A DNA stretch of 32,000 bases from positions 840,001 through 872,000 of the forward strand of contig JAUWGH010000001.1 in assembly GCA_030606485.1 (NCBI GenBank), in the 5' to 3' direction. Of this stretch, positions 2,619 to 17,976 are shown in pieces. How positions within the stretch are numbered: the first letter of the stretch is position 1; every line of letters starts with the position of its first letter. The notes beneath the pieces are model-generated. The model worked only from the letters and a program-made list of their open reading frames with translations. It ran no database searches and was not told the origin of the DNA. The position numbers were made by a program, and so were the translations under genes. The stretch comes from Promethearchaeota archaeon. GTDB lineage: Archaea; Asgardarchaeota; Lokiarchaeia; Sigyniarchaeales; SOKP01.

Positions 2619-2795
2619 AATCAAATCCACTTCAAATATTTAAATGTTATACATAATAAATGGGTTTTTAAATTAAAGATTTAGAAATTTTATTGAATCC
2701 TTTTTTCGCATTTTAATTTTTATTAAATTTAACAAAATTTAATTAGATTTTTTAATTCTTTTCTTTATCATTGTTGAGGTAAATTTATCAGAAAG

Positions 2796-3998
2796 ATGAA
2801 GGGCATTAATTATCGATTCTATCCATTATGGTACTTGGCATTTATAAGAGTCGCTATTGGAATGATGATTGGATTGGCTACACCCTTATATTTTATTGAA
2901 GAAGGGCTAAATCCCGAGATCCTAGGCTTTCTTATCTCTGCAACCGCTTTAGCTTATTTGTTTTCACCCTTCCTTTTAAGAAATGTGCCAAAGAAAATAG
3001 GAATAAAAAAAAGCCTAATAATTTCAATGGTTGGAACTCTAATTGTGCAAATAGGATTTCAAATTTCAATGGATCCCTTAGTAGCATTCATTCTAAGATT
3101 TGCGGATGGAGTCTTTTTGGGGTTATTTTGGCCCGTTCTTCAGGGTTCGATTTCTATTATTTCAACCTATGAGGGTTTACGGGAAAATAATGAGTTAAAA
3201 GATAAGGTTATGAAACTTTATTCTATTTATTGGAATATAGGAGGTGTTTTCAGCTATGCAATAGGCACAATCGTTTTATTTTTTATTGATAATGTCCTTT
3301 TAATGTTTGATATTTCCTTAATTTACGCAATAATAGGCTTTATTTTAGTTTTTATTTTTGAAGAACCTAAATTTAATCTATCTAAAGAAAATTTTTCATT
3401 AAAACAAGAAAGATTAAAACCTAATTCTCAAAGAGAACATGTAAAATTTCCAATTTTTATTCCACTTTTTTTAATGGGGATATATGCGCTATTACTTAGT
3501 TCTGTTGGATATATTTATCCAGCAAAATCTGAATTTTTAAATTTTGCAATTTTTACAAATTACTTGTTCTTTTTCATCCGGCTCAGTGTGCAAGCTTTTT
3601 TAATTTCACAAACAATGCATTTATTAATTAATTCTTTTAAGAAGATAATGCCGTACCTCATGATAACTCTGAGTCTTTGTTTATTAATATGGGGGTTAAC
3701 CGAAAATCTCATTATATTTGGAATTTTATTTTTTACTTTTGGGTTATGTATCTCATTTTTCTACAGTTTTTCGTTCAAATTAGTAATTTTTCGTAATATT
3801 GCCGAAGATACAACAAAATATAGCATATATTTTGAAACTGCGGTCGGTATTTTCTTCTTTATTGGGCCGATATTAAGTGGTTTTTTAATCGCAATCGATT
3901 TTAACTTAGCGTTTTTTATTATGTCGTTTATTGCACTTCTTAGTCTCATTATTTATCTTTCATTGAAAAATAAAATTAAAAGTGAAAAGATTAAATAA
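2796..3998 (+). CDS. MFS transporter
   Basis: 400 aa with about 12 hydrophobic segments and MFS-like RFADGVFLGLFWP and GPILSGFL. Divergent from the DSD1 operon. Confidence 0.85.
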   Translation: MKGINYRFYPLWYLAFIRVAIGMMIGLATPLYFIEEGLNPEILGFLISATALAYLFSPFLLRNVPKKIGIKKSLIISMVGTLIVQIGFQISMDPLVAFILRFADGVFLGLFWPVLQGSISIISTYEGLRENNELKDKVMKLYSIYWNIGGVFSYAIGTIVLFFIDNVLLMFDISLIYAIIGFILVFIFEEPKFNLSKENFSLKQERLKPNSQREHVKFPIFIPLFLMGIYALLLSSVGYIYPAKSEFLNFAIFTNYLFFFIRLSVQAFLISQTMHLLINSFKKIMPYLMITLSLCLLIWGLTENLIIFGILFFTFGLCISFFYSFSFKLVIFRNIAEDTTKYSIYFETAVGIFFFIGPILSGFLIAIDFNLAFFIMSFIALLSLIIYLSLKNKIKSEKIK

Positions 3999-4158
3999 AC
4001 AGATAAACAATAAACCTAAGAAAAAGTGAAGATTAGAAATAATTTTAATTTTTAATGAGTTTTAGTGAGAATTTATAAGTAAAAGGTTTAAATATTCTTA
4101 GACTCATTTGTTAATTTATAAACAAGATTTTTTATAAAAAATAATAGAGTTGTAAATA

Positions 4159-4674
4159 ATGGGCGCTGGAAAAGGTTTAAGTATTTTAGCTGGAATTTTA
4201 ATCATAGTCGCTACTTTTGTATTATCTTGGTTTACAGTTGCTGGTCCCGAATATGCTTATGGTATTGGATTAGTAAAGAATATAATGGGAATGTTTACAG
4301 ATGCTGCAACTTTAGCAACTTCATGGGGGGTTGAAACATTTGTAATTTACATTGTAGCAATTGTGTATATTTTATTCTTGGTTTCTGGAATTTTAGTGCT
4401 AATCGGGGCAAAAGTTCGCGCACTGGCAATAATAGGAGCAATTGTACCTATACTTTTATGTTATGCGATCATAGCGGGTGCTTTTAATATTCCACCAGAT
4501 TTTTATCCTTATATTTCAGTATTTTTGGACTCTGAACCACTAGTTGCAGGTATTATTCCTTTCGATTTACCTTTAGCTCCTGCCAATGCATCAGCAACAG
4601 TATCTCTCGGGACTTATGTGCTTCTTGCAGGCGGTGTTTTAGGTCTTATTGGCGGAATTATGGGTCGAGATTAG
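4159..4674 (+). CDS. Hypothetical 4-TM membrane protein
   Basis: 171 aa Gly/Ala/Ile/Leu-rich ORF with four hydrophobic segments, good coding character and a T-rich 3' flank. No family recognised. Confidence 0.75.
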   Translation: MGAGKGLSILAGILIIVATFVLSWFTVAGPEYAYGIGLVKNIMGMFTDAATLATSWGVETFVIYIVAIVYILFLVSGILVLIGAKVRALAIIGAIVPILLCYAIIAGAFNIPPDFYPYISVFLDSEPLVAGIIPFDLPLAPANASATVSLGTYVLLAGGVLGLIGGIMGRD

Positions 4675-4742
4675 AAAATTTAAAATTTAAAATTTATTTT
4701 TTTCATTTTTACTCTTTGATAACATTCTCTTTAGGTTAAGGT

Positions 4743-6026
4743 CTAATTGTGATGTTTATGCTTAATTCGATTCATATAGATTTTTAAAAATATAAAAATT
4801 ATCAATCCAATTGAGCAAATGAACACCCCTGCAAAAAATGATACTTGATAGGCAAAAACTTCTTCTCTGCCTTCACTGATTAAAAAGTCAATTAGGGGTC
4901 CGGAGATAATGGTGCAAGCCAATCCCCAAGAAAGGAAAAACGTTGTGTTGTATACTGCAAATAACTTAGCTCGCTTTTTTGGGGGCATTAAAGCTGAGGC
5001 AATGGCATATGATGATGCCATAATTAAAACATCTGCAATTCCAATTAAAAAACTCCCTGTGAATATCAGCGGTAAATACATGGAAACAGCCGTAATTATA
5101 ATTGCAAGTATACCTATAAATGTTCCGAGGATTAAAGCAATCGCATGTCCTAATTTTTTGCTCAGTAATCCTGCAAAAAATCCAATCATTATATTTGCGA
5201 TTGAGCGAGTGTTTGCTATAAAACTTAGCAGAATACTATCTACTGCTAAACCAGACTCCAAGGTTAAAAATTGCGAATAAGTTGTCGCTATAGAATTTCT
5301 ACCGAAATTGATAAATATTAAAGCAATGATAAAAACTATAAAAATAGTTGTGTTTTTTTCACTATTCTGATTATTATTATTGGAGACAATCTCCAATTTT
5401 TCTATTGGATTAATTCCACCCTCTGGAGTGAATAACATGGGAATAGTGGATATAAACATAACAAAGGATGCAATAAAAAATAACGGTCCATTCCTAAATC
5501 CTAAACCATTGTCGTATAATAATCCACCAATTGAGATTCCAATTATACGCCCTACTCCTCCAAGACTAGTTAAGTTACCTATTATTCTGCTTCTATCTTT
5601 AAATGGGTAAATATCGGATAATAAAGCACTCCAACCAATATTGGACATGCTCCAAAAGATTTCTACACAAGCAAGTCCAATAATAATTACATACCCTGCA
5701 ATAAATAAATCGGCAATCGATGAATGAATAAACCAAACAGAAATAGTTCCAATGCCAGCCAAAACTTCACCCATTATAATTAATGTTCTACGTCGCTGAA
5801 ATTTATCGGATAATGGACCCCAAACAAGGTTCTGAAAGATTACACTCATTATCATGGGAAGAGTGGCATATAGGGTAGTCTCAGTTACAGACAGGTTCAA
5901 ATAAAATCTTAAATAAATAGATAAATAGGTGTAGAATAGCCCTCGTCTAAACATTGCAAGCATTTGAAAAGAGGTTAAACCAATAAATATGCGTGGTGAT
6001 GATATTTGATGTTTTTTAATTTCCAT
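4743..6026 (-). CDS. MFS transporter
   Basis: 427 aa, about 12 TM, with MFS motif A (WGPLSDKFQRRR) and its C-half repeat (GLLSKKLGH). Confidence 0.9.
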   Translation of the reverse strand: MEIKKHQISSPRIFIGLTSFQMLAMFRRGLFYTYLSIYLRFYLNLSVTETTLYATLPMIMSVIFQNLVWGPLSDKFQRRRTLIIMGEVLAGIGTISVWFIHSSIADLFIAGYVIIIGLACVEIFWSMSNIGWSALLSDIYPFKDRSRIIGNLTSLGGVGRIIGISIGGLLYDNGLGFRNGPLFFIASFVMFISTIPMLFTPEGGINPIEKLEIVSNNNNQNSEKNTTIFIVFIIALIFINFGRNSIATTYSQFLTLESGLAVDSILLSFIANTRSIANIMIGFFAGLLSKKLGHAIALILGTFIGILAIIITAVSMYLPLIFTGSFLIGIADVLIMASSYAIASALMPPKKRAKLFAVYNTTFFLSWGLACTIISGPLIDFLISEGREEVFAYQVSFFAGVFICSIGLIIFIFLKIYMNRIKHKHHN

Positions 6027-6173
6027 TTTTTGTTATATTAGTTAGTGTAGTGTTGTTTTTCTACTATAGTGTTTTGATATTTTGGAATTTTATTTAAATT
6101 TCTCTTTATAAAAAATAAAATTAAAAGTGATTAGAGAGTAATTAATACATAAAAATAAATAAGGTTAGAAAAT

Positions 6174-6650
6174 ATGGCAGAAAATCGAATTAAAATTGAT
6201 CCTTATGAACATATTGATAAATTTTTCACAAGAGCTTCATTATTGGCGACAATGAGTAAGGATGGAAAACCGAATGTAATGTCAATTCTTTGGAGGTCTA
6301 TAGGCGAATTGTGGATGTATCCAGTAATTACCGTAGCAGTTTCACCTTCCCGCTATAGTTATGAACTCTTAACAAAAGGGATTAGAGAGTTTACATTAAA
6401 CGTTCCTTCAGATAAGATAAGCTCTGCTATTGATATTTGTGGTACGTATTCAGGGAGAAATACTGATAAATTTAAACAAGCAAACTTAACTATAATTCCG
6501 GGAAAACGAGTTAAAGTTCCTACAATAAAGGATTGTGTGCTGAGTTATGAATGTAAAATAATTCACGAGACAGATTCAGGAAATATTGAACCACATCATT
6601 TATTTTTTGGTGAAATTCTTGCTGCTTATACTCTAAAGGAAGAGATTTAA
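6174..6650 (+). CDS. Flavin reductase-like protein (DIM6/NTAB family)
   Basis: GKPNVMSI, VAVSPSRYSYEL, EFTLNVP, CGTYSGRNTDKF, LSYECK and HHLFFGEI. Confidence 0.9.
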   Translation: MAENRIKIDPYEHIDKFFTRASLLATMSKDGKPNVMSILWRSIGELWMYPVITVAVSPSRYSYELLTKGIREFTLNVPSDKISSAIDICGTYSGRNTDKFKQANLTIIPGKRVKVPTIKDCVLSYECKIIHETDSGNIEPHHLFFGEILAAYTLKEEI

Positions 6651-9205: not shown

Positions 9206-10396
9206 ATGGTTGATATTAGCAATATTAAGACATTTGCAGTTATTGGTGCCGGTACTATGGGTCGAGAAATTACACAAGTAGCCCTCATGGCTGGCTTTGA
9301 GAAAGTCATATTGAACGATATTGAAAAGGATGTAATGAATAGAGCTGAAGAATATATTATCAATGGACTTAAAAGGCTTGAGGCTAAAAATAAATTAGGT
9401 GAGGGAGTTAGTACAGAAATGATCATGGCTAAATTAGTAAAAGAAACGGATTTAATAAAGGCAGTGTCAAATGCAGATTTCGTGGTTGAAGCGGTTCCCG
9501 AAATTATGAAGATAAAGCAAGAATTATTTGAAAAATTGGGTAAATTTTCAGCCGAACATGCAATTTTAGCATCAAATACATCAACTATGAGTATAACAAA
9601 AATAGGAGAACGTTCCGGAAAACCTGAAAAGGTAATAGGGATGCATTTCTTTATTCCTATTGTAGTCCTTAGGTTAATTGAATTAATTAAAGGAGAAAAA
9701 ACATCTCAAGAAACGATGGATATTAGTTATGGGGTTGGAATGAAATTGCCAGCCCTTAAGGGTAAAAGATTTATTGTTCAAATTGAAAAAGAAAGCCCAG
9801 GATTTATCGTAAATAGATTAACAATTGGAGGTAATATGTATTTAAATTGTGTTATTGATGAAGCATTCGAGAAAGGAATTCCATGGGAAGACGTTGATGC
9901 TGATGCTGGAGATTTAACACAATGGGGTCCTTTAGTAAAATTGGATTTTTTCGGCTTAGATGTAATAAATCATTGTCAAAAATATTTTGAATCTGTTCTC
10001 TCCCCAGATTTCAACCCAGGAAAAGTCATTACAAACCTTGTAAAAGAAGGCAATTTAGGAAGCAAAACTGGCAAGGGTTTTTATGAATGGACAGCAGATG
10101 GAAAACCTATAATAAAAAAGGGAAAAAAAATAGGGCTTTTTGATCTTGAAACTTATATGGCTGTTCAATTAAATGAAGGATGTAGATTATTAGAAGAAGG
10201 AATCGTTTCTGGATATAAAATAATTGATAACACAATATTAGCAGGTATGAATATGCCAGGTCCATTTAGTGCTGGGAAAAGAAATTATAAAAAATGGGCT
10301 GAATTGTTAGAACAATTAGCAAACAAGACGGGAAAAGAATATTTTAGACCTTGTACTCTGATGAAATCGGGTGGTTTTATTAAGATGCGAAAATAA
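9206..10396 (+). CDS. 3-hydroxyacyl-CoA dehydrogenase family protein, paralog 2
   Basis: GAGTMG, VEAVPE, ASNTST, GMHFFIP and PGFIVNR. Colinear with paralog 1 and has the same KMRK terminus. Confidence 0.92.
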   Translation: MVDISNIKTFAVIGAGTMGREITQVALMAGFEKVILNDIEKDVMNRAEEYIINGLKRLEAKNKLGEGVSTEMIMAKLVKETDLIKAVSNADFVVEAVPEIMKIKQELFEKLGKFSAEHAILASNTSTMSITKIGERSGKPEKVIGMHFFIPIVVLRLIELIKGEKTSQETMDISYGVGMKLPALKGKRFIVQIEKESPGFIVNRLTIGGNMYLNCVIDEAFEKGIPWEDVDADAGDLTQWGPLVKLDFFGLDVINHCQKYFESVLSPDFNPGKVITNLVKEGNLGSKTGKGFYEWTADGKPIIKKGKKIGLFDLETYMAVQLNEGCRLLEEGIVSGYKIIDNTILAGMNMPGPFSAGKRNYKKWAELLEQLANKTGKEYFRPCTLMKSGGFIKMRK

Positions 10397-10495
10397 AAAG
10401 ATTAAATAATTGCAAAAGCATAATCAATTTTATTTGAATAGTTTAATTTAACGATTTTTAATAAAGAAAAGAACTTCAACTAGAGGGGAAAAAAG

Positions 10496-11683
10496 ATGGT
10501 AGATATTAGCCATATTAAAAATATTGTTGTGATTGGAGCTGGTATTATGGGTCTCGGTATCACTCAATCTGCATTATGGGGTGGTTTTGAGAAGGTTGTC
10601 TTGAATGATATCAAAAAGGAATTCATTGATAATGGAGTTAAAAAGATTGAAGAGGGGTTGAAAAAATCCGAATCTAAAGGAAAATTAGGGGAAGGGATTA
10701 TTACTGATGCACTTATGCCAAATCTGATTAAAGAAGTGGATCTCGTAAAAGCTATTGCAGACGCTGATTTTATATTTGAAGTAGTTACTGAGGATTTGAA
10801 AATTAAACAACAATTATATAAAAAATTAGGTGAAAATTCTCCTGAACATACTATTTTCGCATCAAATACCTCAACTATAAGAATTACAGAATTGGGAGAA
10901 GCTTCAAATCACCCTGAACAAGTAATAGGGATGCACTTTTTCCTACCTCCATATCGTCAAAGAGGGATAGAAATAATGAAAGGTGAAAAAACTTCTGATG
11001 AAACTATGGAAATTGGTGTGGCTGTTGGCCAAAAATTACCATGTCTTGATGGGAAAAGAGTGATTGCTCAACTTGAAAAAGAAAGTCCAGGATTTATTGT
11101 AAATAGGCTACTTTTATCCGCCCAAATTTATTTTAATTGGATTCTTGATCAAGCAGAAGAAAATAAGATTTCATGGGAACAAATTGATGCAGATGCAGGT
11201 GATTTAATATTAATTGGTCCATGTGAATTATCTGATTATCTAGGATTAGACACTTCTTATAATAGTATGAAATCATTTGAAACAATACTTTCTCCAGATT
11301 TTGCTCCTGGAGAAGTCCTCACAAAATTGGTCTCAGAGGGACATTTTGGAAAAAAAACCGGGAAAGGCTTCTATGATTGGATTGAAGGAAAACCCAAAAT
11401 AGATAAATCAAAAAAGGCAGGATTTTTTAATCCAGAAGTGATGATGGCTATTCAATTAAATGAGGGGTGTAGGCTTTTAGAAGAGGGAGTTGTTAAGGGA
11501 TACAAGATTATTGATGATATTATGTTAAGTGGTACTAGCATGCCCGGTCCATTCAGCGCTGGTAAAAGAAATTATGAAAAATGGTCTCATATGTTAAATA
11601 AATTAGCGACCCAGATTGGAAAAGAATATCTTAGACCTTGTAAATTATTAAAGTCTGGAAATTTTATTAAAATGAGAAAATGA
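10496..11683 (+). CDS. 3-hydroxyacyl-CoA dehydrogenase family protein, paralog 3
   Basis: GAGIMG, FEVVTE, ASNTST, GMHFFLPP and PGFIVNR. Colinear with paralogs 1 and 2. Confidence 0.92.
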   Translation: MVDISHIKNIVVIGAGIMGLGITQSALWGGFEKVVLNDIKKEFIDNGVKKIEEGLKKSESKGKLGEGIITDALMPNLIKEVDLVKAIADADFIFEVVTEDLKIKQQLYKKLGENSPEHTIFASNTSTIRITELGEASNHPEQVIGMHFFLPPYRQRGIEIMKGEKTSDETMEIGVAVGQKLPCLDGKRVIAQLEKESPGFIVNRLLLSAQIYFNWILDQAEENKISWEQIDADAGDLILIGPCELSDYLGLDTSYNSMKSFETILSPDFAPGEVLTKLVSEGHFGKKTGKGFYDWIEGKPKIDKSKKAGFFNPEVMMAIQLNEGCRLLEEGVVKGYKIIDDIMLSGTSMPGPFSAGKRNYEKWSHMLNKLATQIGKEYLRPCKLLKSGNFIKMRK

Positions 11684-11940: not shown

Positions 11941-12885
11941 CTACATCTTAATTAATTGTCCAATTGCATCCATTAAAGTCTCTTTTTTAGGAGCCCCTTT
12001 CAGTAATTCCGTTTTGATTCTTTCTGCTAATTCTTGAGGAGTAAATTTCTTTCCATTATTGCTGATGCTATTGTAAGTGTGCCATCCTTGAAAGACCCAC
12101 ACTCGATCTGCGACCACTCGAAATACTTCACCGGTTATTCTTTTAGCAGCGTCAGAAGCTAGAAAAACAACCATTGGAGCAATATTTTCTGGATTAAACA
12201 CATCAAAGCCGCTTTCATCCAATTTACTCATAATTTCAATCATTTTAGGTGTTGCATCAGTTGTAAGTCTTGTTCTCGCTACCGGAACTACGCAATTCAC
12301 TGTTGCATATTTCTTTAACTCCATTGCTGAAATAACCGTAAATGCTGCAATTCCTGCTTTTGCTGCTCCATAATTCGTTTGTCCCATGTTTCCTAGCAGT
12401 CCAGCATCAGAAGCGGTGTTGATAACCCTTCCAAAGTTTTTTAATGATGGATCCGCTTTACCTTGTTGTCTAAAGTAGTTAGCAACATGGCGAGTCATAT
12501 TAAATGTACCTTTCAAATGAACAGCTATTACATCATCAAATTCTGCTTCACTCATGTTAAAAAGCATACGATCACGGAGGATTCCAGCGTTATTTACCAC
12601 AATATCTAATTTTCCAAATTCGGATACAGCTTGGTCAATCATTCCCTTGGCTTTATCAAAATCTGTTACGGAATCGTAATTACCTACAGCCTTTACCCCC
12701 AACTTTTTGCATTCTTCAGCTACCTCGTCTGCAACTTTCTTTTCAGAACCAGATCCATCAAATGCTGCCCCCAAGTCATTTATTAATAAATTACATCCTT
12801 CTTTTGCCATAAGTAATGCTTCTTCACGACCTAAACCTCTTCCAGCACCAGTTATTATTGCGACCTTTCCATCCAACAATCCCAT
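11941..12885 (-). CDS. SDR oxidoreductase resembling the (3R)-hydroxyacyl-CoA dehydrogenase domain of MFE-2/HSD17B4
   Basis: TGAGRGLG, LLINDLG, VNNAGILRDRM, HLKGTF and NTASDAGLLGNMGQTNYGAAKAG (YxxxK). Confidence 0.88.
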   Translation of the reverse strand: MGLLDGKVAIITGAGRGLGREEALLMAKEGCNLLINDLGAAFDGSGSEKKVADEVAEECKKLGVKAVGNYDSVTDFDKAKGMIDQAVSEFGKLDIVVNNAGILRDRMLFNMSEAEFDDVIAVHLKGTFNMTRHVANYFRQQGKADPSLKNFGRVINTASDAGLLGNMGQTNYGAAKAGIAAFTVISAMELKKYATVNCVVPVARTRLTTDATPKMIEIMSKLDESGFDVFNPENIAPMVVFLASDAAKRITGEVFRVVADRVWVFQGWHTYNSISNNGKKFTPQELAERIKTELLKGAPKKETLMDAIGQLIKM

Positions 12886-13815: not shown

Positions 13816-14634
13816 CTATTCAATGGAACCTTTAAATTCAACTCGTTCACCTGTATCAACTATTCTTCTAACTCTTTGCACATTTACTTTACGCATTTCT
13901 GTATTATTTTTAAATTTTCGAGCAGGTTGGCCAATATAAGTCCAATCTTTTTCTAACCTTTGTCCTACATTAGTCATTGCCCAAACACCAAGAACAGAAC
14001 CCTTTTCCATAACAGTTCCGGGAGAGACAACAGCATAACCTCCAATAATGCAATGATCTCCAATTATAACCTTTTTAAGAAGCATATAATCTCCAATAAC
14101 AATACTAGAAAGAATTATAGCACCCTGTCCAACCATAATATTTTTTCCAAATTCTACAAACTCATAATCTACCCATCCATCAAATAAAGTAGATTTAAAA
14201 TCAGCTTTCATTCCACAAATTTTAAACGCGAGGTTTGTGACCCATGGAACTGGAAAAGAATTCCATACATAAAAAATAAATTTTTTAATAGTTGCACGAA
14301 AACAATAGTAAGAATAATCTTTATCTTTAAGATTAATTTTAAAGATTCCTTCTCTTGGTTTATGGATTAAATTTAAAATAATTAATAGACATTTACCTAC
14401 TCCTAAAGTTATAAGTAAAAAGCAAAAATACCAAGCCAAAATATCGATTGGCAACCTAATAATCATAAGATTTAGAATTGTATTTTTCAACACATTATTA
14501 TAAAATGTAAAAGCAAGATATATTGTTGGGAAAAAGGATACAAAAATCAAAAAAATATAAATAAGACTAAATCTTTTAGCGATAGGAGGGCTAGTTATAA
14601 TAGGAATCTCATTAAAAACATTTTTATTCTTCAA
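13816..14634 (-). CDS. Membrane protein with one TM-hairpin + left-handed beta-helix (hexapeptide acyltransferase-like) module
   Basis: Two TM segments, HKPREG, then hexapeptide turns (FGKNIMVGQGAII, IIGDHCIIGGYAVVSPGTVM) and YIGQPA. TTG start with GGAGG, overlapping the upstream stop by 11 nt. Confidence 0.85.
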   Translation of the reverse strand: MKNKNVFNEIPIITSPPIAKRFSLIYIFLIFVSFFPTIYLAFTFYNNVLKNTILNLMIIRLPIDILAWYFCFLLITLGVGKCLLIILNLIHKPREGIFKINLKDKDYSYYCFRATIKKFIFYVWNSFPVPWVTNLAFKICGMKADFKSTLFDGWVDYEFVEFGKNIMVGQGAIILSSIVIGDYMLLKKVIIGDHCIIGGYAVVSPGTVMEKGSVLGVWAMTNVGQRLEKDWTYIGQPARKFKNNTEMRKVNVQRVRRIVDTGERVEFKGSIE

Positions 14635-16231
14635 GCTCTAAACCTCCTAAATATTTTTTTAAATCTTCTTTGGTAATTCTTTTTAATGGAAAACCAGCAT
14701 AATAACCATTATTACCTAATTTATCTAATTTTACAGTAGCACTCATCGGTAATAACGTAGAATTTTCACCAATCTCTGTTCCGGGAAAACCTCCACAATA
14801 GGCAGATAATACAGAATTATTACCAATTTTCACTCCGAAAAATGTTATATTTTCCTCTCCGAAAAAACCATCAACAAGATGATTGGTTAGATAACAAAAT
14901 TGACCAAAATAACAATTTTCCCCAGTATTTAAAAATTCCTTAGTAATAAATTGGTCTTCGAAAGTTGTTCTTTTTCCTATTTTATCAGCACCTATAAAAT
15001 TTAATGCCCAATTAGTTAGCCAGGGAAATGGACTTTTTGTAAATGCTAATATTGGATATTTTAATAGGAAGGAACGGTGATGATAGAAATTTAATTCTCT
15101 TGACTCAAAATTCCTATCTAATACTCCTTGTCTTGAGGGAGAAAGTTTCTCACTCCACTTATACAACAATTTTGTGAATAATGCCACAAAAAATAGATGC
15201 AATAGATACAAGCCCATAAGGACAAGTGGCGTAATTAATAAAAAAAATTGTGTAAATAAATTTGTAAAATTAACCCACCCAAAAGGTGTGCTAAAAATAG
15301 AAGGTATTAAAATTTCAAATAGAAAGAGAAAAAATAGAATTGCAGGAATTAAAAATGACACGCCAACATTTAAAATAATTATCGGAATGTAAATATGGAA
15401 TTGCACTCTAATATGGTGTTTATCATCTTTCTTTAAATTATTAGTTTGTTGCTGAATATCTGATTTATCATAAATTAAAGTTTCTGTGTGAACATTTTGG
15501 TATATATCTTTACTATCGCTTTTTTCAAATAATATTGCTTTAAGATTATCAATTTTTTCATTAATATTATAATCCCCAATTTTTATTGCTGGAGTTCCTT
15601 TATAAATACAGCCAGAATCTAAGATTTGATTTATATGGGTTGAAGATACGGCATTTAAAATAGCACCCTTTCTAAATTTTGTTCCGGGCGCAACTAAAGA
15701 ATGAGCACCAATTATTGAATCATCTTCAATGATTGTTTTTTGAATAATCAAATAATTATCAATGATAATTGCCCCCATTACGACACTTCCTACACCGACA
15801 ATCACATTTTTTCCAAATTCAATGAATTCACAATCGATCCATCCTTCAAACATGTAATTATGAAAATTTGTTTTCACACCAAACACTTTAAAAAGAAGAT
15901 TATCCAAATACGGCATAGGAAAGTTGTGAGTTATCCATACAGGCCATTTTTTAATAAGCCCTCTTAGACTCCAATAGATATAATCTTTATTATCTTTATT
16001 TCTCTTAAATATTCCTTCTTTTGGTTTATGAATTAAATTAACAATTATTAGAAATATTTTTGCAATAATTATTGATGAGAAAATCATAATTAAATAACAG
16101 AATAAGAGTTCAAATGGAAAGAGAAGATAAAATACTATAGTTACGGGATTTGCAAAATTAGTCAAAAAAATCCAAAAACTGACTAAAGCCGGATAAAAGC
16201 TTAGAGTTATAATACTTAAATAAATTAACAT
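14624..16231 (-). CDS. Membrane protein with two tandem TM-hairpin + left-handed beta-helix modules
   Basis: Module 1: TM pair, HKPKEG, FGKNVIVGVGSVV, YKGTPA. Module 2: TM pair, PSRQG, IGADKIGK, CYLTNH, IGNNSVL, YYAGFP. The true start is probably upstream, since the frame is open to 16300. Confidence 0.85.
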   Translation of the reverse strand: MLIYLSIITLSFYPALVSFWIFLTNFANPVTIVFYLLFPFELLFCYLIMIFSSIIIAKIFLIIVNLIHKPKEGIFKRNKDNKDYIYWSLRGLIKKWPVWITHNFPMPYLDNLLFKVFGVKTNFHNYMFEGWIDCEFIEFGKNVIVGVGSVVMGAIIIDNYLIIQKTIIEDDSIIGAHSLVAPGTKFRKGAILNAVSSTHINQILDSGCIYKGTPAIKIGDYNINEKIDNLKAILFEKSDSKDIYQNVHTETLIYDKSDIQQQTNNLKKDDKHHIRVQFHIYIPIIILNVGVSFLIPAILFFLFLFEILIPSIFSTPFGWVNFTNLFTQFFLLITPLVLMGLYLLHLFFVALFTKLLYKWSEKLSPSRQGVLDRNFESRELNFYHHRSFLLKYPILAFTKSPFPWLTNWALNFIGADKIGKRTTFEDQFITKEFLNTGENCYFGQFCYLTNHLVDGFFGEENITFFGVKIGNNSVLSAYCGGFPGTEIGENSTLLPMSATVKLDKLGNNGYYAGFPLKRITKEDLKKYLGGLELEE

Positions 16232-16431
16232 AAATCTTTTCTTATATGGTAAAGTATTTGTAGTGAATGGTCCAACTCTTAGTGAAGCCGGGATTGAGAT
16301 TTATTTTTCACTTCTTCTTTTTTACTAAATCATTGGAAAAAATATATAATCATTATAATAAGTTTAAAATTTATTAATCTTCCTTAAATTGATAATTAAA
16401 TTGAAAATTACATAAAAATAGTTAGAAATTA

Positions 16432-17976
16432 TCAAAGATCTATGCAATTAAAACATAAATCCATAGAATGAACGATTAAAGGAAAATCCTTTATATCACA
16501 ATTAGGTAAAATAAAATTTTTTAAAGCAAAAAAATTATTCATAGAGGGTGTTTGTATAGATACACTTCCTAAATTATCTTTTCCCGGACGATCTGAAGTC
16601 TTTAAGATATAGACCAATTCTCCCTGAGGGGCTTCTACAACAGAAATTCCAATTTCATCAGCAATCAATTTGACATTTGCTAAATCAATAGCCTCTATTT
16701 TTGCAGTATCATTCTTAAGATAATCTATAGCTCCTTTAATAATAGAAACAGAATTTTTTAATTCCCATAATCTAACCTGAATGCGAGAATAAGCATCTCC
16801 TCCATTAAATGTTACAACTTCCCATTTATCAACAATATCTTCATCTAGATATGAATTATATGGAGAAAAATAGCGAATATCGTAGATGTGGCCTGAAGCT
16901 CGAATATTTGGGCCAGTTATTCCTGATTCTAGAACACTTTCTTCTAATAATGTACTTAAACCCTTAAATCGATTTTTAAGATTAGAATTATAGATGCGAT
17001 TATATAAAATTTTAAATGACGATGAGTAAATTTCATCGACGGCTTCTTGTAAATCATTTAATGAATACCAGAGTATATCTTTCACATAACCTATATAATT
17101 TAATTCTTCAAAATATCTTGTGCCTAATTCTTTTTCTAAAAAATTAAGAAAATACAGAACTTTATTAAGAAGATTATAATATTCCTTAAAATGATAGGTT
17201 AAATACATTAGATTTGCAAACCAAAGTATGTGATTTGTTATTCTCTCCAATTCACAATAAATGGTTCGGATCATTTTAACCCGATTTGATACCGAAACAT
17301 TAATAATCGATTCCATTGCTAAAGAATAAGCTAAACTGTGATGGAATGAACTAGTTGAGCATATTTTTTCTACAAGTTTGAGATTTTCCTTATCCCAATT
17401 CTTATATTTCATCAATGGGATAATTCCTCTATACAGCCAACCTGTTTTAAAATTTACAGACTTTATAATATTTTTGTCTAAATTAAAGTGAAAATAGTTA
17501 TCTGTAAGGTGAATTCTATTAAAAACACCTTGAGAAAGAATATTTTTTGCAGAATGTGCTGGGAATAATTTAACTGGAAAATTATACAAGCTCTCTTCAA
17601 GTTCTTCCTTAAAATATAAAAATTTAATCCCATATCTTTTAGATATTTCATCTTCATAATTTTCTACTTGAGGATAAGCGACCCTCACGGAATCAATTTC
17701 GTTGGAATCTTTATCCACTTCAGTAATTACAAATAAATATTGATTATCTGGAATATATTCGCCAAAATATTCATAAATTACTTCATATTTATTTTCAAAA
17801 TCATTAATTAATATATTTTTTAAATTAACCGATTTTTCACCGAAAAAAAAAGCAATATCTCTAACACGGGCTTTATTAATATAAAAAACATTTTCAAAAT
17901 TTCGAGTAGGTGCGCCTTTTAACTCATTCCCAAGGTAATTTTTAAATTCTAATAATAATTTAGAGTAAATTTGCAT
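16432..17976 (-). CDS. Group-4 [NiFe]-hydrogenase large-subunit homolog (HycE/HyfG-like fused C+D domains) with degenerate active site
   Basis: N-terminal NuoC/EchD-like IDSV..AYP..ENYEDEI..YGIKF; core ELERITNH, GITGPNIRASG..DIR..PY..Y and GDAYSR..VR; C-terminal DFPLIVHSMDLCFNCIDL. L1 motif reads KICSTS and APRG reads APQG. Confidence 0.85.
   Translation of the reverse strand: MQIYSKLLLEFKNYLGNELKGAPTRNFENVFYINKARVRDIAFFFGEKSVNLKNILINDFENKYEVIYEYFGEYIPDNQYLFVITEVDKDSNEIDSVRVAYPQVENYEDEISKRYGIKFLYFKEELEESLYNFPVKLFPAHSAKNILSQGVFNRIHLTDNYFHFNLDKNIIKSVNFKTGWLYRGIIPLMKYKNWDKENLKLVEKICSTSSFHHSLAYSLAMESIINVSVSNRVKMIRTIYCELERITNHILWFANLMYLTYHFKEYYNLLNKVLYFLNFLEKELGTRYFEELNYIGYVKDILWYSLNDLQEAVDEIYSSSFKILYNRIYNSNLKNRFKGLSTLLEESVLESGITGPNIRASGHIYDIRYFSPYNSYLDEDIVDKWEVVTFNGGDAYSRIQVRLWELKNSVSIIKGAIDYLKNDTAKIEAIDLANVKLIADEIGISVVEAPQGELVYILKTSDRPGKDNLGSVSIQTPSMNNFFALKNFILPNCDIKDFPLIVHSMDLCFNCIDL

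What the first reader, a model, noticed from the sequence alone, without database searches (positions are those of the whole stretch)
13816..16300. Split two-gene membrane beta-helix system with the 6-TM/3-domain layout of poly-L-lysine synthetase (Pls/PosA) but no A/T domains
Seen: the 535-aa and 272-aa genes overlap (TTG start with GGAGG inside the upstream stop region). Together they contain three copies of one module: TM hairpin, PxEG/PxQG, an aromatic amphipathic helix (DYxYW/YY), F/I-G-x-K, hexapeptide turns and Y-x-G-x-P(A). That totals 6 TM segments and 3 soluble domains. Only module 2 has the His typical of beta-helix acyltransferases (CYLTNH); modules 1 and 3 have VMGA and ILSS there. 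Established: Streptomyces Pls has A and T domains followed by six TM segments around three tandem acetyltransferase-like domains that polymerise lysine, and LbH acyltransferases are trimers with interfacial active sites. Inference: this could be a free-standing Pls-type condensation unit, assembled as an asymmetric pseudo-trimer with one catalytic and two structural modules. It might make an archaeal poly(amino acid) or acylate a surface polymer or lipid using a donor supplied in trans.
Basis: partly seen in the sequence, partly recalled or inferred. Interest (0 to 1): 0.78.

Follow-up and report, generated by a model that had tools for sequence, protein, structure and literature searches.

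The report
Split membrane beta-helix acyltransferase, Pls-like
Two overlapping genes of an Asgard (Loki-type) archaeon encode three copies of a membrane-hairpin plus beta-helix module that most likely assemble into one membrane-bound acyl-transfer enzyme with a single active site; its only studied relative is the polymerising end of bacterial poly-lysine synthetase, and its substrate is unknown.

Summary
Window 14624-16231(-) (535 aa) and 13816-14634(-) (272 aa, TTG start, 11-nt overlap) carry three homologous modules. Each has a TM hairpin, conserved membrane-proximal helices and a left-handed beta-helix. Only module 2 keeps the His that aligns with the catalytic His115 of LacA.

The Pls link is real but distant. 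TIGR02353 is the top NCBIfam hit for both proteins, yet far below its cut-off. Profile comparison with Pls C1 gives 99% probability. The whole-module fold matches Pls/PosA clusters (TM 0.71). Module trees put the Asgard and Pls triplications in separate clades, so this is a sister lineage, not a Pls member.

Assembly of the two proteins is supported by a complex model (0.71 against 0.00 for the best control), conserved adjacency and a fused orthologue.

New here:
- The genome holds four such sets (12 modules, 4 His-type to 8 non-His) in different fusion states.
- The family was found in 41 of 41 genomes of the archaeon's family.
- Carrier domains were found in only 3 of those 41, which argues against a Pls-style tethered donor.

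Most likely it is an acyl-CoA-dependent membrane acyltransferase. The acceptor is unknown. An earlier first-reader note of this scan (e1-5453126) flagged one paralogous set.

The parts
14624..16231 (-). Gene 1, 535 aa: modules 1 and 2 fused in one polypeptide
   Evidence: ORF. 442 homologues were found; the top 120 are nearly all Asgard, 41-51% identical (two closer relatives at 75-94%) and 444-549 aa long. Pfam Hexapep is above its cut-off.
15497..16231 (-). Module 1 (aa 1-245): TM hairpin (about aa 5-34 and 40-64), KPKEG, conserved helices, beta-helix without the His (VVMGA)
   Evidence: hhalign to Pls C1 gives probability 99%, E 2.8e-18, over aa 68-222.
14627..15445 (-). Module 2 (aa 263-535): TM hairpin (about aa 283-309 and 323-351), beta-helix with the invariant motif N450-H451-x-V-D-G-x-x-G-x-E-N
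   Evidence: These residues are invariant in 59 orthologues. It belongs to the His-type clade, support 100/99.
14879..14881 (-). Codon of His451, the putative general base
   Evidence: It shares a column with the invariant His of the single-module relatives. That His aligns with LacA His115 and with the invariant His of Pls C3, motif QTHLFEDR.
13816..14634 (-). Gene 2, 272 aa: module 3 (TM hairpin, KPREG, beta-helix with Ser at the His position, invariant D193-H194, conserved RRIVD tail)
   Evidence: The AF2 model has pLDDT 77.
14624..14647 (-). Translational-coupling junction: GGAGG (14647-14643), TTG start (14634-14632) and upstream TAA (14626-14624), giving an 11-nt overlap
   Evidence: The same overlapping arrangement occurs in L001, L002 and L003. 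There are no indels in independent assemblies.

Best explanation
The two genes make one membrane enzyme.

Assembly: the 535-aa protein supplies modules 1 and 2, and the 272-aa protein supplies module 3. Their three left-handed beta-helices pack side by side on the cytoplasmic face, as in trimeric hexapeptide acyltransferases. Six TM helices form a bundle beneath them.

Active site: only module 2 keeps the general-base His (H451) in its invariant NHxVDGxxGxEN loop. That loop faces module 3, so the pseudo-trimer has one complete active site at the M2/M3 interface. M1 and M3 are as conserved as M2. They probably supply the neighbouring half of the site and the membrane-proximal substrate path.

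Chemistry (inferred): transfer of an acyl group from a phosphopantetheine thioester to a nucleophile on a membrane-associated or exported acceptor. This is the same basic reaction as the Pls/PosA polymerisation domain and the maltose/galactoside acetyltransferases. The donor here is most likely free acyl-CoA, not a carrier domain.

Relationship: the family is a sister lineage of the Pls terminal domain. It arose from single-module, presumably homotrimeric, TM-plus-beta-helix proteins by its own duplications.

Shown or computed: module homology, conservation, gene linkage, fold, the modelled interface and the phyletic pattern. Inferred: catalysis, the CoA donor and the acceptor.
For: Modules and His pattern:
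- Modules and His pattern in this window. 125 two-module homologues all read non-His then His.
- Single-module relatives all keep the His; it is invariant H165 in 22 sequences. It aligns with LacA His115.

Assembly:
- Complex model score 0.71, best of 3 controls 0.00. The mark was reached by 58 of 80 solved complexes and 2 of 110 mismatched pairs. Runs agree in at least 88% of contacts and the partner's pLDDT is at least 71.
- M3 touches the beta-helices of both M1 (aa 144-149, 173-177, 191-195) and M2 (aa 447-463, 498-518), and also the TM helices.
- Gene pair adjacent and overlapping in three Asgard lineages.
- Orthologous 808-aa fusion P0005 and fused paralogue P0273.
- The own genome has 12 modules in 5 loci, 4 His-type to 8 non-His.

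Pls relationship.

Soluble part: the best full-length PDB matches are acetyl-CoA-using galactoside/maltose O-acetyltransferases.

Against a carrier donor:
- The module family was found in 41/41 genomes of the own family, where PP-binding was found in 3/41.
- Family f5 shows the reverse: 0/22 for the modules and 21/22 for PP-binding.
- No A or T genes lie beside any locus.
Against: - No biochemical data exist for any stand-alone member.
- CoA-binding residues were not examined.
- The alignment of H451 to LacA His115 goes through two steps. A direct profile search of M2 against the PDB is weak (best E 0.0046) and uninformative about the His.
- Beta-helix trimers are well represented among solved structures, so the complex score may partly reflect likeness.
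- No conserved neighbour points to an acceptor. The GNAT, nitroreductase and His_Phos_1 neighbours seen in other Asgards are dispersed in this genome.
- Locus D carries a His in one M1/M3-type module, so the one-His rule is not absolute.
Confidence: 0.55

Rival explanations
1. It is a true Pls-type polymerase. The pseudo-trimer would polymerise an amino acid (or a similar monomer) into an exported homopolymer, with the activated monomer delivered in trans by a stand-alone adenylating enzyme and carrier, or as an aminoacyl-CoA or aminoacyl-tRNA.
For: The only characterised relatives are polymerases, and they share the same 6-TM, three-module layout and the one-His asymmetry. The genome does hold one stand-alone ligase plus 79-aa carrier pair. 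A bacterial stand-alone three-module relative sits beside a FemAB-like gene.
Against: Carrier domains were found in only 3 of 41 genomes of the family that always carries the modules, and in none of the three same-genus genomes. The own carrier cluster is 336 kb away, inside a sugar-modification-like cluster. Scores to TIGR02353 are about a tenth of the cut-off. The Asgard triplication is separate from that of Pls. Four paralogous sets per genome fit diversified acyltransferases better than four polymers.
Confidence: 0.13
2. It is an ordinary WcaF/maltose-acetyltransferase-like sugar O-acetyltransferase that merely carries a membrane anchor. On this reading the resemblance to Pls is only the shared generic beta-helix.
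For: Generic hexapeptide families score nearly as well as TIGR02353: 44.3 and 33.3 bits against 48.8. The best PDB matches are MAT/GAT enzymes.
Against: hhalign to Pls C1 starts at aa 68, well before the beta-helix, and matches the KP(x)xG, W..R and P.L..K..G.K blocks. The Atlas fold search aligns aa 1-265, hairpin included, to Pls clusters at TM 0.71. Generic sugar acetyltransferases match only aa 90-272, at TM 0.49. A profile built only from this genome's modules hits all three Pls modules, with whole-protein E 1e-32 to 1e-47.
Confidence: 0.12
3. It is not an enzyme. It would be a membrane scaffold, channel or gamma-carbonic-anhydrase-like structural subunit in which the beta-helices only provide a trimerisation platform.
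For: Two of the three modules lack the His. Gamma-carbonic-anhydrase-like proteins appear among weak hits, and such proteins serve as structural subunits of complex I in some eukaryotes.
Against: The M2 loop NHxVDGxxGxEN is invariant in 59 orthologues, which is typical of a catalytic site. Module 3 has only two His in total (H91, H194; read), so it cannot form a three-His zinc site by itself. All single-module relatives keep the His.
Confidence: 0.08

Closest known systems
C-terminal polymerisation domain of epsilon-poly-L-lysine synthetase Pls and delta-poly-L-ornithine synthetase PosA (NCBIfam TIGR02353, NRPS_term_dom)
   Same: Both have three tandem modules of TM hairpin, conserved membrane-proximal helices and a left-handed beta-helix. 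That gives six TM helices and a pseudo-three-fold beta-helix bundle (AF model in PMC10522769). Only one of the three modules keeps the His. Homology is detectable by sequence, profile and fold.
   Different: There are no adenylation or carrier domains. The modules are split over two (elsewhere three) genes. The His-bearing module is second (or first) rather than third. Scores are far below the family cut-off. The triplication is phylogenetically independent. Carrier proteins are mostly not found in the genomes that carry this family. It occurs in Asgard archaea, not bacteria or fungi.
Maltose / galactoside O-acetyltransferases (Maa, LacA; PDB 1ocx, 1kqa, 3ftt, 5u2k)
   Same: These are the best full-length solved matches to the soluble part: N-terminal helices plus beta-helix, about 186 aligned columns, TM by target 0.54-0.59. 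The family His aligns with LacA His115. The subunits form a trimeric beta-helix bundle.
   Different: Those enzymes are soluble homotrimers with three identical active sites. Here there is a membrane hairpin per module, three diverged subunits and one His. Sequence identity is 13-17%.
Single-module TM-hairpin plus beta-helix proteins of about 220-240 aa (e.g. P0209, a Nanoarchaeota MAG; uncharacterised)
   Same: They have the same module, are the sister group in the trees, and all keep the His.
   Different: They have one gene and one module, and are presumably homotrimers with three active sites. They show no subunit specialisation.

Membership tests
Pls/PosA family NRPS terminal domain (TIGR02353) | Score at or above the curated cut-off of the family model (423.1 bits) | tested here: not met
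   48.8 bits for the 535-aa protein and 34.9 bits for the 272-aa protein. It is nonetheless the top hit for both.
Pls/PosA family NRPS terminal domain (TIGR02353) | Three tandem modules, each a pair of TM helices followed by a roughly 180-residue beta-helix domain (6 TM, 3 domains) | tested here: met
   The modules are spread over two polypeptides. Fused orthologue: P0005.
Pls/PosA family NRPS terminal domain (TIGR02353) | Adenylation and thiolation (carrier) domains N-terminal in the same protein | tested here: not met
   Pfam and NCBIfam find only hexapeptide-type matches. There is no A or T gene beside any locus.
Pls/PosA family NRPS terminal domain (TIGR02353) | Common origin of the three-module arrangement (modules orthologous to C1, C2, C3) | tested here: not met
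   Pls C1-C3 form one clade and the Asgard modules form another (IQ-TREE; FastTree). hhalign shows no one-to-one pairing, since every Asgard module matches C1 best.
Pls/PosA family NRPS terminal domain (TIGR02353) | Whole-module fold, including the TM hairpin and pre-helix elements | tested here: met
   Atlas fold search: Pls/PosA clusters at TM 0.71 over aa 1-265. hhalign covers the pre-helix region.
Pls/PosA family NRPS terminal domain (TIGR02353) | Iterative amide-bond polymerisation of a diamino acid | not testable with these tools
   This needs biochemistry.
Hexapeptide-repeat (LbH) acyltransferases, MAT/GAT type | Hexapeptide repeats recognised by Pfam PF00132 above the gathering score | tested here: met
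   31.5 and 29.2 bits against a cut-off of 27.
Hexapeptide-repeat (LbH) acyltransferases, MAT/GAT type | Catalytic His at the position of LacA His115 | tested here: met
   Met in module 2 only (H451), by a two-step alignment. Modules 1 and 3 have Ala and Ser. A direct M2 profile search against the PDB was uninformative.
Hexapeptide-repeat (LbH) acyltransferases, MAT/GAT type | Trimer of parallel beta-helices with interfacial active sites | tested here: inconclusive
   The modelled heteromer scores 0.71 against 0.00 for the best control, and M3 touches both other beta-helices. This is a model, not a structure, and solved LbH trimers may bias it.
Hexapeptide-repeat (LbH) acyltransferases, MAT/GAT type | Use of acetyl- or acyl-CoA as donor | not testable with these tools
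   Inferred from the nearest solved relatives and from carrier domains being found in few of these genomes.
Gamma-class carbonic anhydrase-like proteins | Three zinc-binding His at the subunit interface | tested here: not met
   Module 3 has only two His in the whole protein (H91, H194; sequence). The hits are weak, E 1e-4 to 1e-6.

The most novel reading that the evidence does not exclude
Asgard archaea use several carrier-independent, heterotrimeric Pls-like machines to build or acylate membrane-associated or secreted polymers, for example a polyamide or an acylated lipid or glycan. Each machine would have one active site coupled to a six-helix membrane conduit. If so, the bacterial and fungal poly(amino acid) synthetases would be one specialised offshoot of a much wider class of membrane beta-helix transferases that has not been studied.
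Probability: 0.15. Interest if true: 0.85.

Novelty: new variant of a known kind. Interest (0 to 1): 0.6.

Why it matters
The Pls/PosA polymerisation domain is the only studied member of its fold class. It has no solved structure: no PDB hit was found by sequence.

This finding shows a large, uncharacterised archaeal sister family. Sources annotate it only as hypothetical protein, generic acyltransferase, acetyltransferase-like isoleucine-patch enzyme or 'DapH/DapD/GlmU-related'. It has four notable features:
- It lacks A and T domains.
- It exists as one, two or three genes.
- It has repeatedly evolved a single-active-site pseudo-trimer.
- It is found in every sampled genome of a Loki-type family, in several copies each.

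It offers simpler, dissectable subunits for working out how this fold catalyses acyl transfer at the membrane. It also points to unknown acylated or polymeric surface or lipid products in the archaeal relatives of eukaryotes.

Tried and rejected
- Stand-alone full-length TIGR02353 proteins (P0236, P0250; 611 bits) looked like free Pls domains, but they are 'partial' proteins cut at contig ends.
- No orthology between M2 and Pls C3 was found.
- Eukaryote link: the Marchantia FAAL-carrier-three-module protein P0200 groups with the Pls clade, not with Asgard.
- Gene neighbourhoods gave no functional lead. The window has ERCC4 and a Complex1_49kDa-like gene. Loci B-E have HypF, HdrB-like, PfkB, ADP-forming CoA ligase and GDPD genes. 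The GNAT / nitroreductase / small protein / His_Phos_1 synteny seen in three other Asgards is dispersed in this genome.
- A direct PDB profile search with M2 was too weak to place the His.
- Literature: no paper held the term TIGR02353, and none held the four terms Asgard, hexapeptide, acetyltransferase and membrane together. No solved Pls terminal domain was found.
- Expression: no RNA holder was listed. The one 'RNA?' run is probably DNA and covers only 15488-15845.
- A mixed alignment for folding a fused form (A6) put module-3 sequences on module 1, so that fold was not run.
- hmmalign scored P0273 as having no His, whereas MAFFT aligns its m2 'LTDHLWD' His. I trust the MAFFT placement.
Full report
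**1. What is there**

The minus strand carries a 535-aa ORF (14624-16231) and a 272-aa ORF (13816-14634).
- The second ORF starts at TTG 14634-14632, 8 nt after GGAGG (14647-14643) and one codon after an in-frame TAG. It overlaps the first gene's TAA (14626-14624) by 11 nt.
- Residues 11 and 14 of the 272-aa protein are at least 90% conserved among 35 orthologues. The next in-frame start would delete the first TM helix. The TTG start is therefore real.
- Contigs from two other studies cross the junction with substitutions only and no indels. The split is not an assembly artefact.

**2. Three modules**

- M1 (aa 1-245) and M3 (the 272-aa protein) are 38% identical (E 9e-60). M2 (aa 263-535) matches both at 22-23% identity (E 1e-14 to 1e-15).
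- Each module has two hydrophobic helices. The flanks are K/R-rich on the N-terminal and post-TM2 sides, so the beta-helix domains face the cytoplasm.
- Pfam sees only Hexapep.

**3. Relatives**

- The 535-aa protein has 442 homologues. The top 120 are nearly all Asgard (Loki/Promethearchaeota, Thor, Odin, Hermod, Hod). Most are 41-51% identical and 444-549 aa long; two closer relatives are 75-94% identical, and one is the 808-aa fusion.
- The 272-aa protein has its own Asgard orthologues at 45-57% identity.
- The pair is adjacent and overlapping in a closed Promethearchaeota genome, an Odin MAG and a Thor MAG.
- An 808-aa JGI protein (P0005) is an orthologous fusion of all three modules.
- A 797-aa fused paralogue (P0273) exists in genomes that also carry the split pair.

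**4. Link to Pls/PosA**

- TIGR02353 is the best NCBIfam hit for both proteins (48.8 and 34.9 bits), but the cut-off is 423.
- An exhaustive phmmer search with the 272-aa protein finds A-T-containing Pls proteins with three matched stretches at E 1e-10 to 1e-16.
- A profile built from this genome's 12 modules alone hits all three modules of four Pls proteins, with whole-protein E 1e-32 to 1e-47.
- hhalign of M1 against Pls C1 gives 99% probability and E 2.8e-18. The alignment starts at aa 68, before the beta-helix. It pairs the KP(K)EG, W..R and P.L..K..G.K blocks.
- The AF2 model of the 272-aa protein (pLDDT 77) finds Asgard clusters first in the ESM Atlas. Next come Pls/PosA clusters at TM 0.71 over aa 1-265. 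Generic sugar O-acetyltransferases match only aa 90-272, at TM 0.49.
- In the PDB the soluble part is closest to galactoside and maltose O-acetyltransferases.
- No Pls terminal domain is solved. The only structural picture is the AlphaFold model in PMC10522769: six bent helices with three beta-helices packed with approximate three-fold symmetry.

**5. Not a Pls member**

- Trees of 46-49 modules put Pls C1-C3 (plus a Marchantia FAAL-carrier protein) in one clade.
- Two stand-alone three-module proteins of unnamed origin, P0196 and P0239, form a second clade. P0196 is complete on its contig; P0239's completeness was not checked. Neither has an organism name in the sources (for P0196).
- Single-module proteins form a third group; the one with an organism name, P0209, is from a Nanoarchaeota MAG. 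All Asgard modules form a fourth (IQ-TREE; FastTree).
- The Asgard triplication is therefore its own event.
- Within Asgard there is a His-type clade (support 100/99) and a non-His clade. The non-His clade contains a well-supported M3-type group (100/96).

**6. The His**

- In the module alignment, every Asgard M2-type module has His at the aligned column. M1-type and M3-type modules do not, with one exception (D1).
- All single-module proteins have it. In Pls only C3 has it (QTHLFEDR). In P0196 only m2 has it.
- This His is invariant in 22 single-module proteins and aligns with LacA 'TGH', His115. That this residue is the general base of LacA is from my own knowledge of that enzyme.
- 125 two-module homologues all read non-His then His.
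- Around H451 the loop N-H-x-V-D-G-x-x-G-x-E-N is invariant in 59 orthologues.
- M1 and M3 are as conserved as M2: mean column identity of the beta-helix is 0.72, 0.74 and 0.81 for M1, M2 and M3. The pre-helix regions are the most conserved parts in M1 and M2; in M3 the beta-helix itself (0.81) slightly exceeds the pre-helix region (0.79). They are therefore functional partners, not relics.

**7. Assembly**

- The complex model of 535+272, run with my alignments, scores 0.71. The best of 3 controls scores 0.00.
- The mark was reached by 58 of 80 solved complexes and 2 of 110 mismatched pairs. The runs agree in at least 88% of contacts, and the partner's pLDDT is at least 71.
- Module 3 touches the beta-helices of M1 and M2, the M2 His loop (aa 453-461) and the TM helices.
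- Solved beta-helix trimers may help this score, so it shows likeness of assembly rather than proof.

**8. Genome-wide picture**

The genome (3.75 Mb, 13 contigs, 100% complete) holds 12 modules in 5 loci:
- the window, arranged 2+1;
- C1:218570-221110, three genes (His-type, M3-type, third type);
- C2:270449-272979, the same arrangement;
- C10:170100-171670, two non-M2-type genes;
- C12:69446-70270, a lone His-type gene.

That makes 4 His-type modules to 8 others. In the window, the fused forms and loci B and C, the His-type module is directly followed by the M3-type module; the assignment of B3/C3 to the M1 type is unresolved. An earlier first-reader note (e1-5453126) flagged locus B with the same reading. 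I confirmed its gene order and His pattern.

**9. Donor**

- No adenylation or carrier gene lies next to any locus.
- The genome's only carrier is a 79-aa ORF. It sits with a 506-aa acyl ligase, a weak PPTase hit, a cytidylyltransferase and a PseH-like GNAT, 336 kb from the window. No carrier-domain match was found in the three same-genus genomes.
- Across 200 genomes of the phylum, the module family was found in 41/41 genomes of the own family, where PP-binding was found in 3/41. Family f5 shows 0/22 for the modules against 21/22 for PP-binding.
- These are samples of related genomes, so no statistic is claimed. Even so, a carrier-tethered donor cannot be general. Free acyl-CoA, which carries the same phosphopantetheine thioester, is the economical inference.

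**10. Verdict**

- The Pls-like architecture and the asymmetric pseudo-trimer are supported.
- Membership of the Pls family, and the poly(amino acid) product, are not supported.
- The most likely function is a membrane-anchored, acyl-CoA-dependent acyltransferase with one interfacial active site. The acceptor is unknown.
- It is a new variant of a known kind: widespread and multi-copy in Loki-type archaea, and uncharacterised.

Noticed in passing
Own genome G000: C1:218570-221110(+), C2:270449-272979(+), C10:170100-171670(+), C12:69446-70270(+) (loci L015-L018): Four further loci hold paralogous TM-hairpin plus beta-helix modules. Two are three-gene sets (His-type first), one is a two-gene set without an M2-type module, and one is a lone His-type gene. 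Together with the window they give 4 His-type to 8 other modules.
   Followed up: partly
Own genome C10:515342-518944 (L019 4342-7944): A cluster of a 79-aa acyl carrier protein, a 506-aa acyl-CoA/ACP-type ligase, a 268-aa ORF with a weak ACPS (PPTase) match and a KdsB-like cytidylyltransferase, with a PseH-like GNAT and an aldo-keto reductase nearby. No carrier-domain match was found in the three same-genus genomes, so it may have been acquired.
   Followed up: partly
L005 4690-6837, and the ENA contig of P0126 at 4055-6202: A 715-aa protein with no Pfam match lies directly upstream of the fused three-module paralogue on two different contigs. It may be a conserved partner of that paralogue.
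   Followed up: no
L004 1626-6034 (GCA_031386565.1): The stand-alone three-module protein P0196 (TIGR02353 183 bits, His only in m2) sits in an apparent operon with a FemAB-like protein, two half-size EamA transporters and a glyoxalase/Ble-like protein.
   Followed up: no
Protein P0200 / P0278 (Marchantia polymorpha, MpACOS18): A liverwort protein fuses a fatty-acyl-AMP ligase and a carrier domain to three TM-plus-beta-helix modules. Its modules group with the Pls clade. The Atlas also lists rotifer and streptophyte clusters with this module.
   Followed up: partly
Phylum survey, family f5 (e.g. G073:C1:573944-574801): Another family in the same phylum carries open frames of about 1,200-3,500 aa (mostly 2,700-3,500) with one to several tandem PP-binding domains in 21 of 22 genomes (giant PKS/NRPS-like proteins). 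None of these genomes showed the module family.
   Followed up: no
window 9206-11683 (+) and 11941-12885 (-): Two tandem paralogous 3-hydroxyacyl-CoA dehydrogenase genes (396 and 395 aa) lie next to a short-chain dehydrogenase. This looks like a beta-oxidation-type cluster just downstream of the finding.
   Followed up: no
window 16432-17976 (-): A lone 514-aa Complex1_49kDa / NiFe-hydrogenase-large-subunit-like protein with a roughly 190-aa N-terminal extension and no adjacent partner subunits among the ORFs checked.
   Followed up: no
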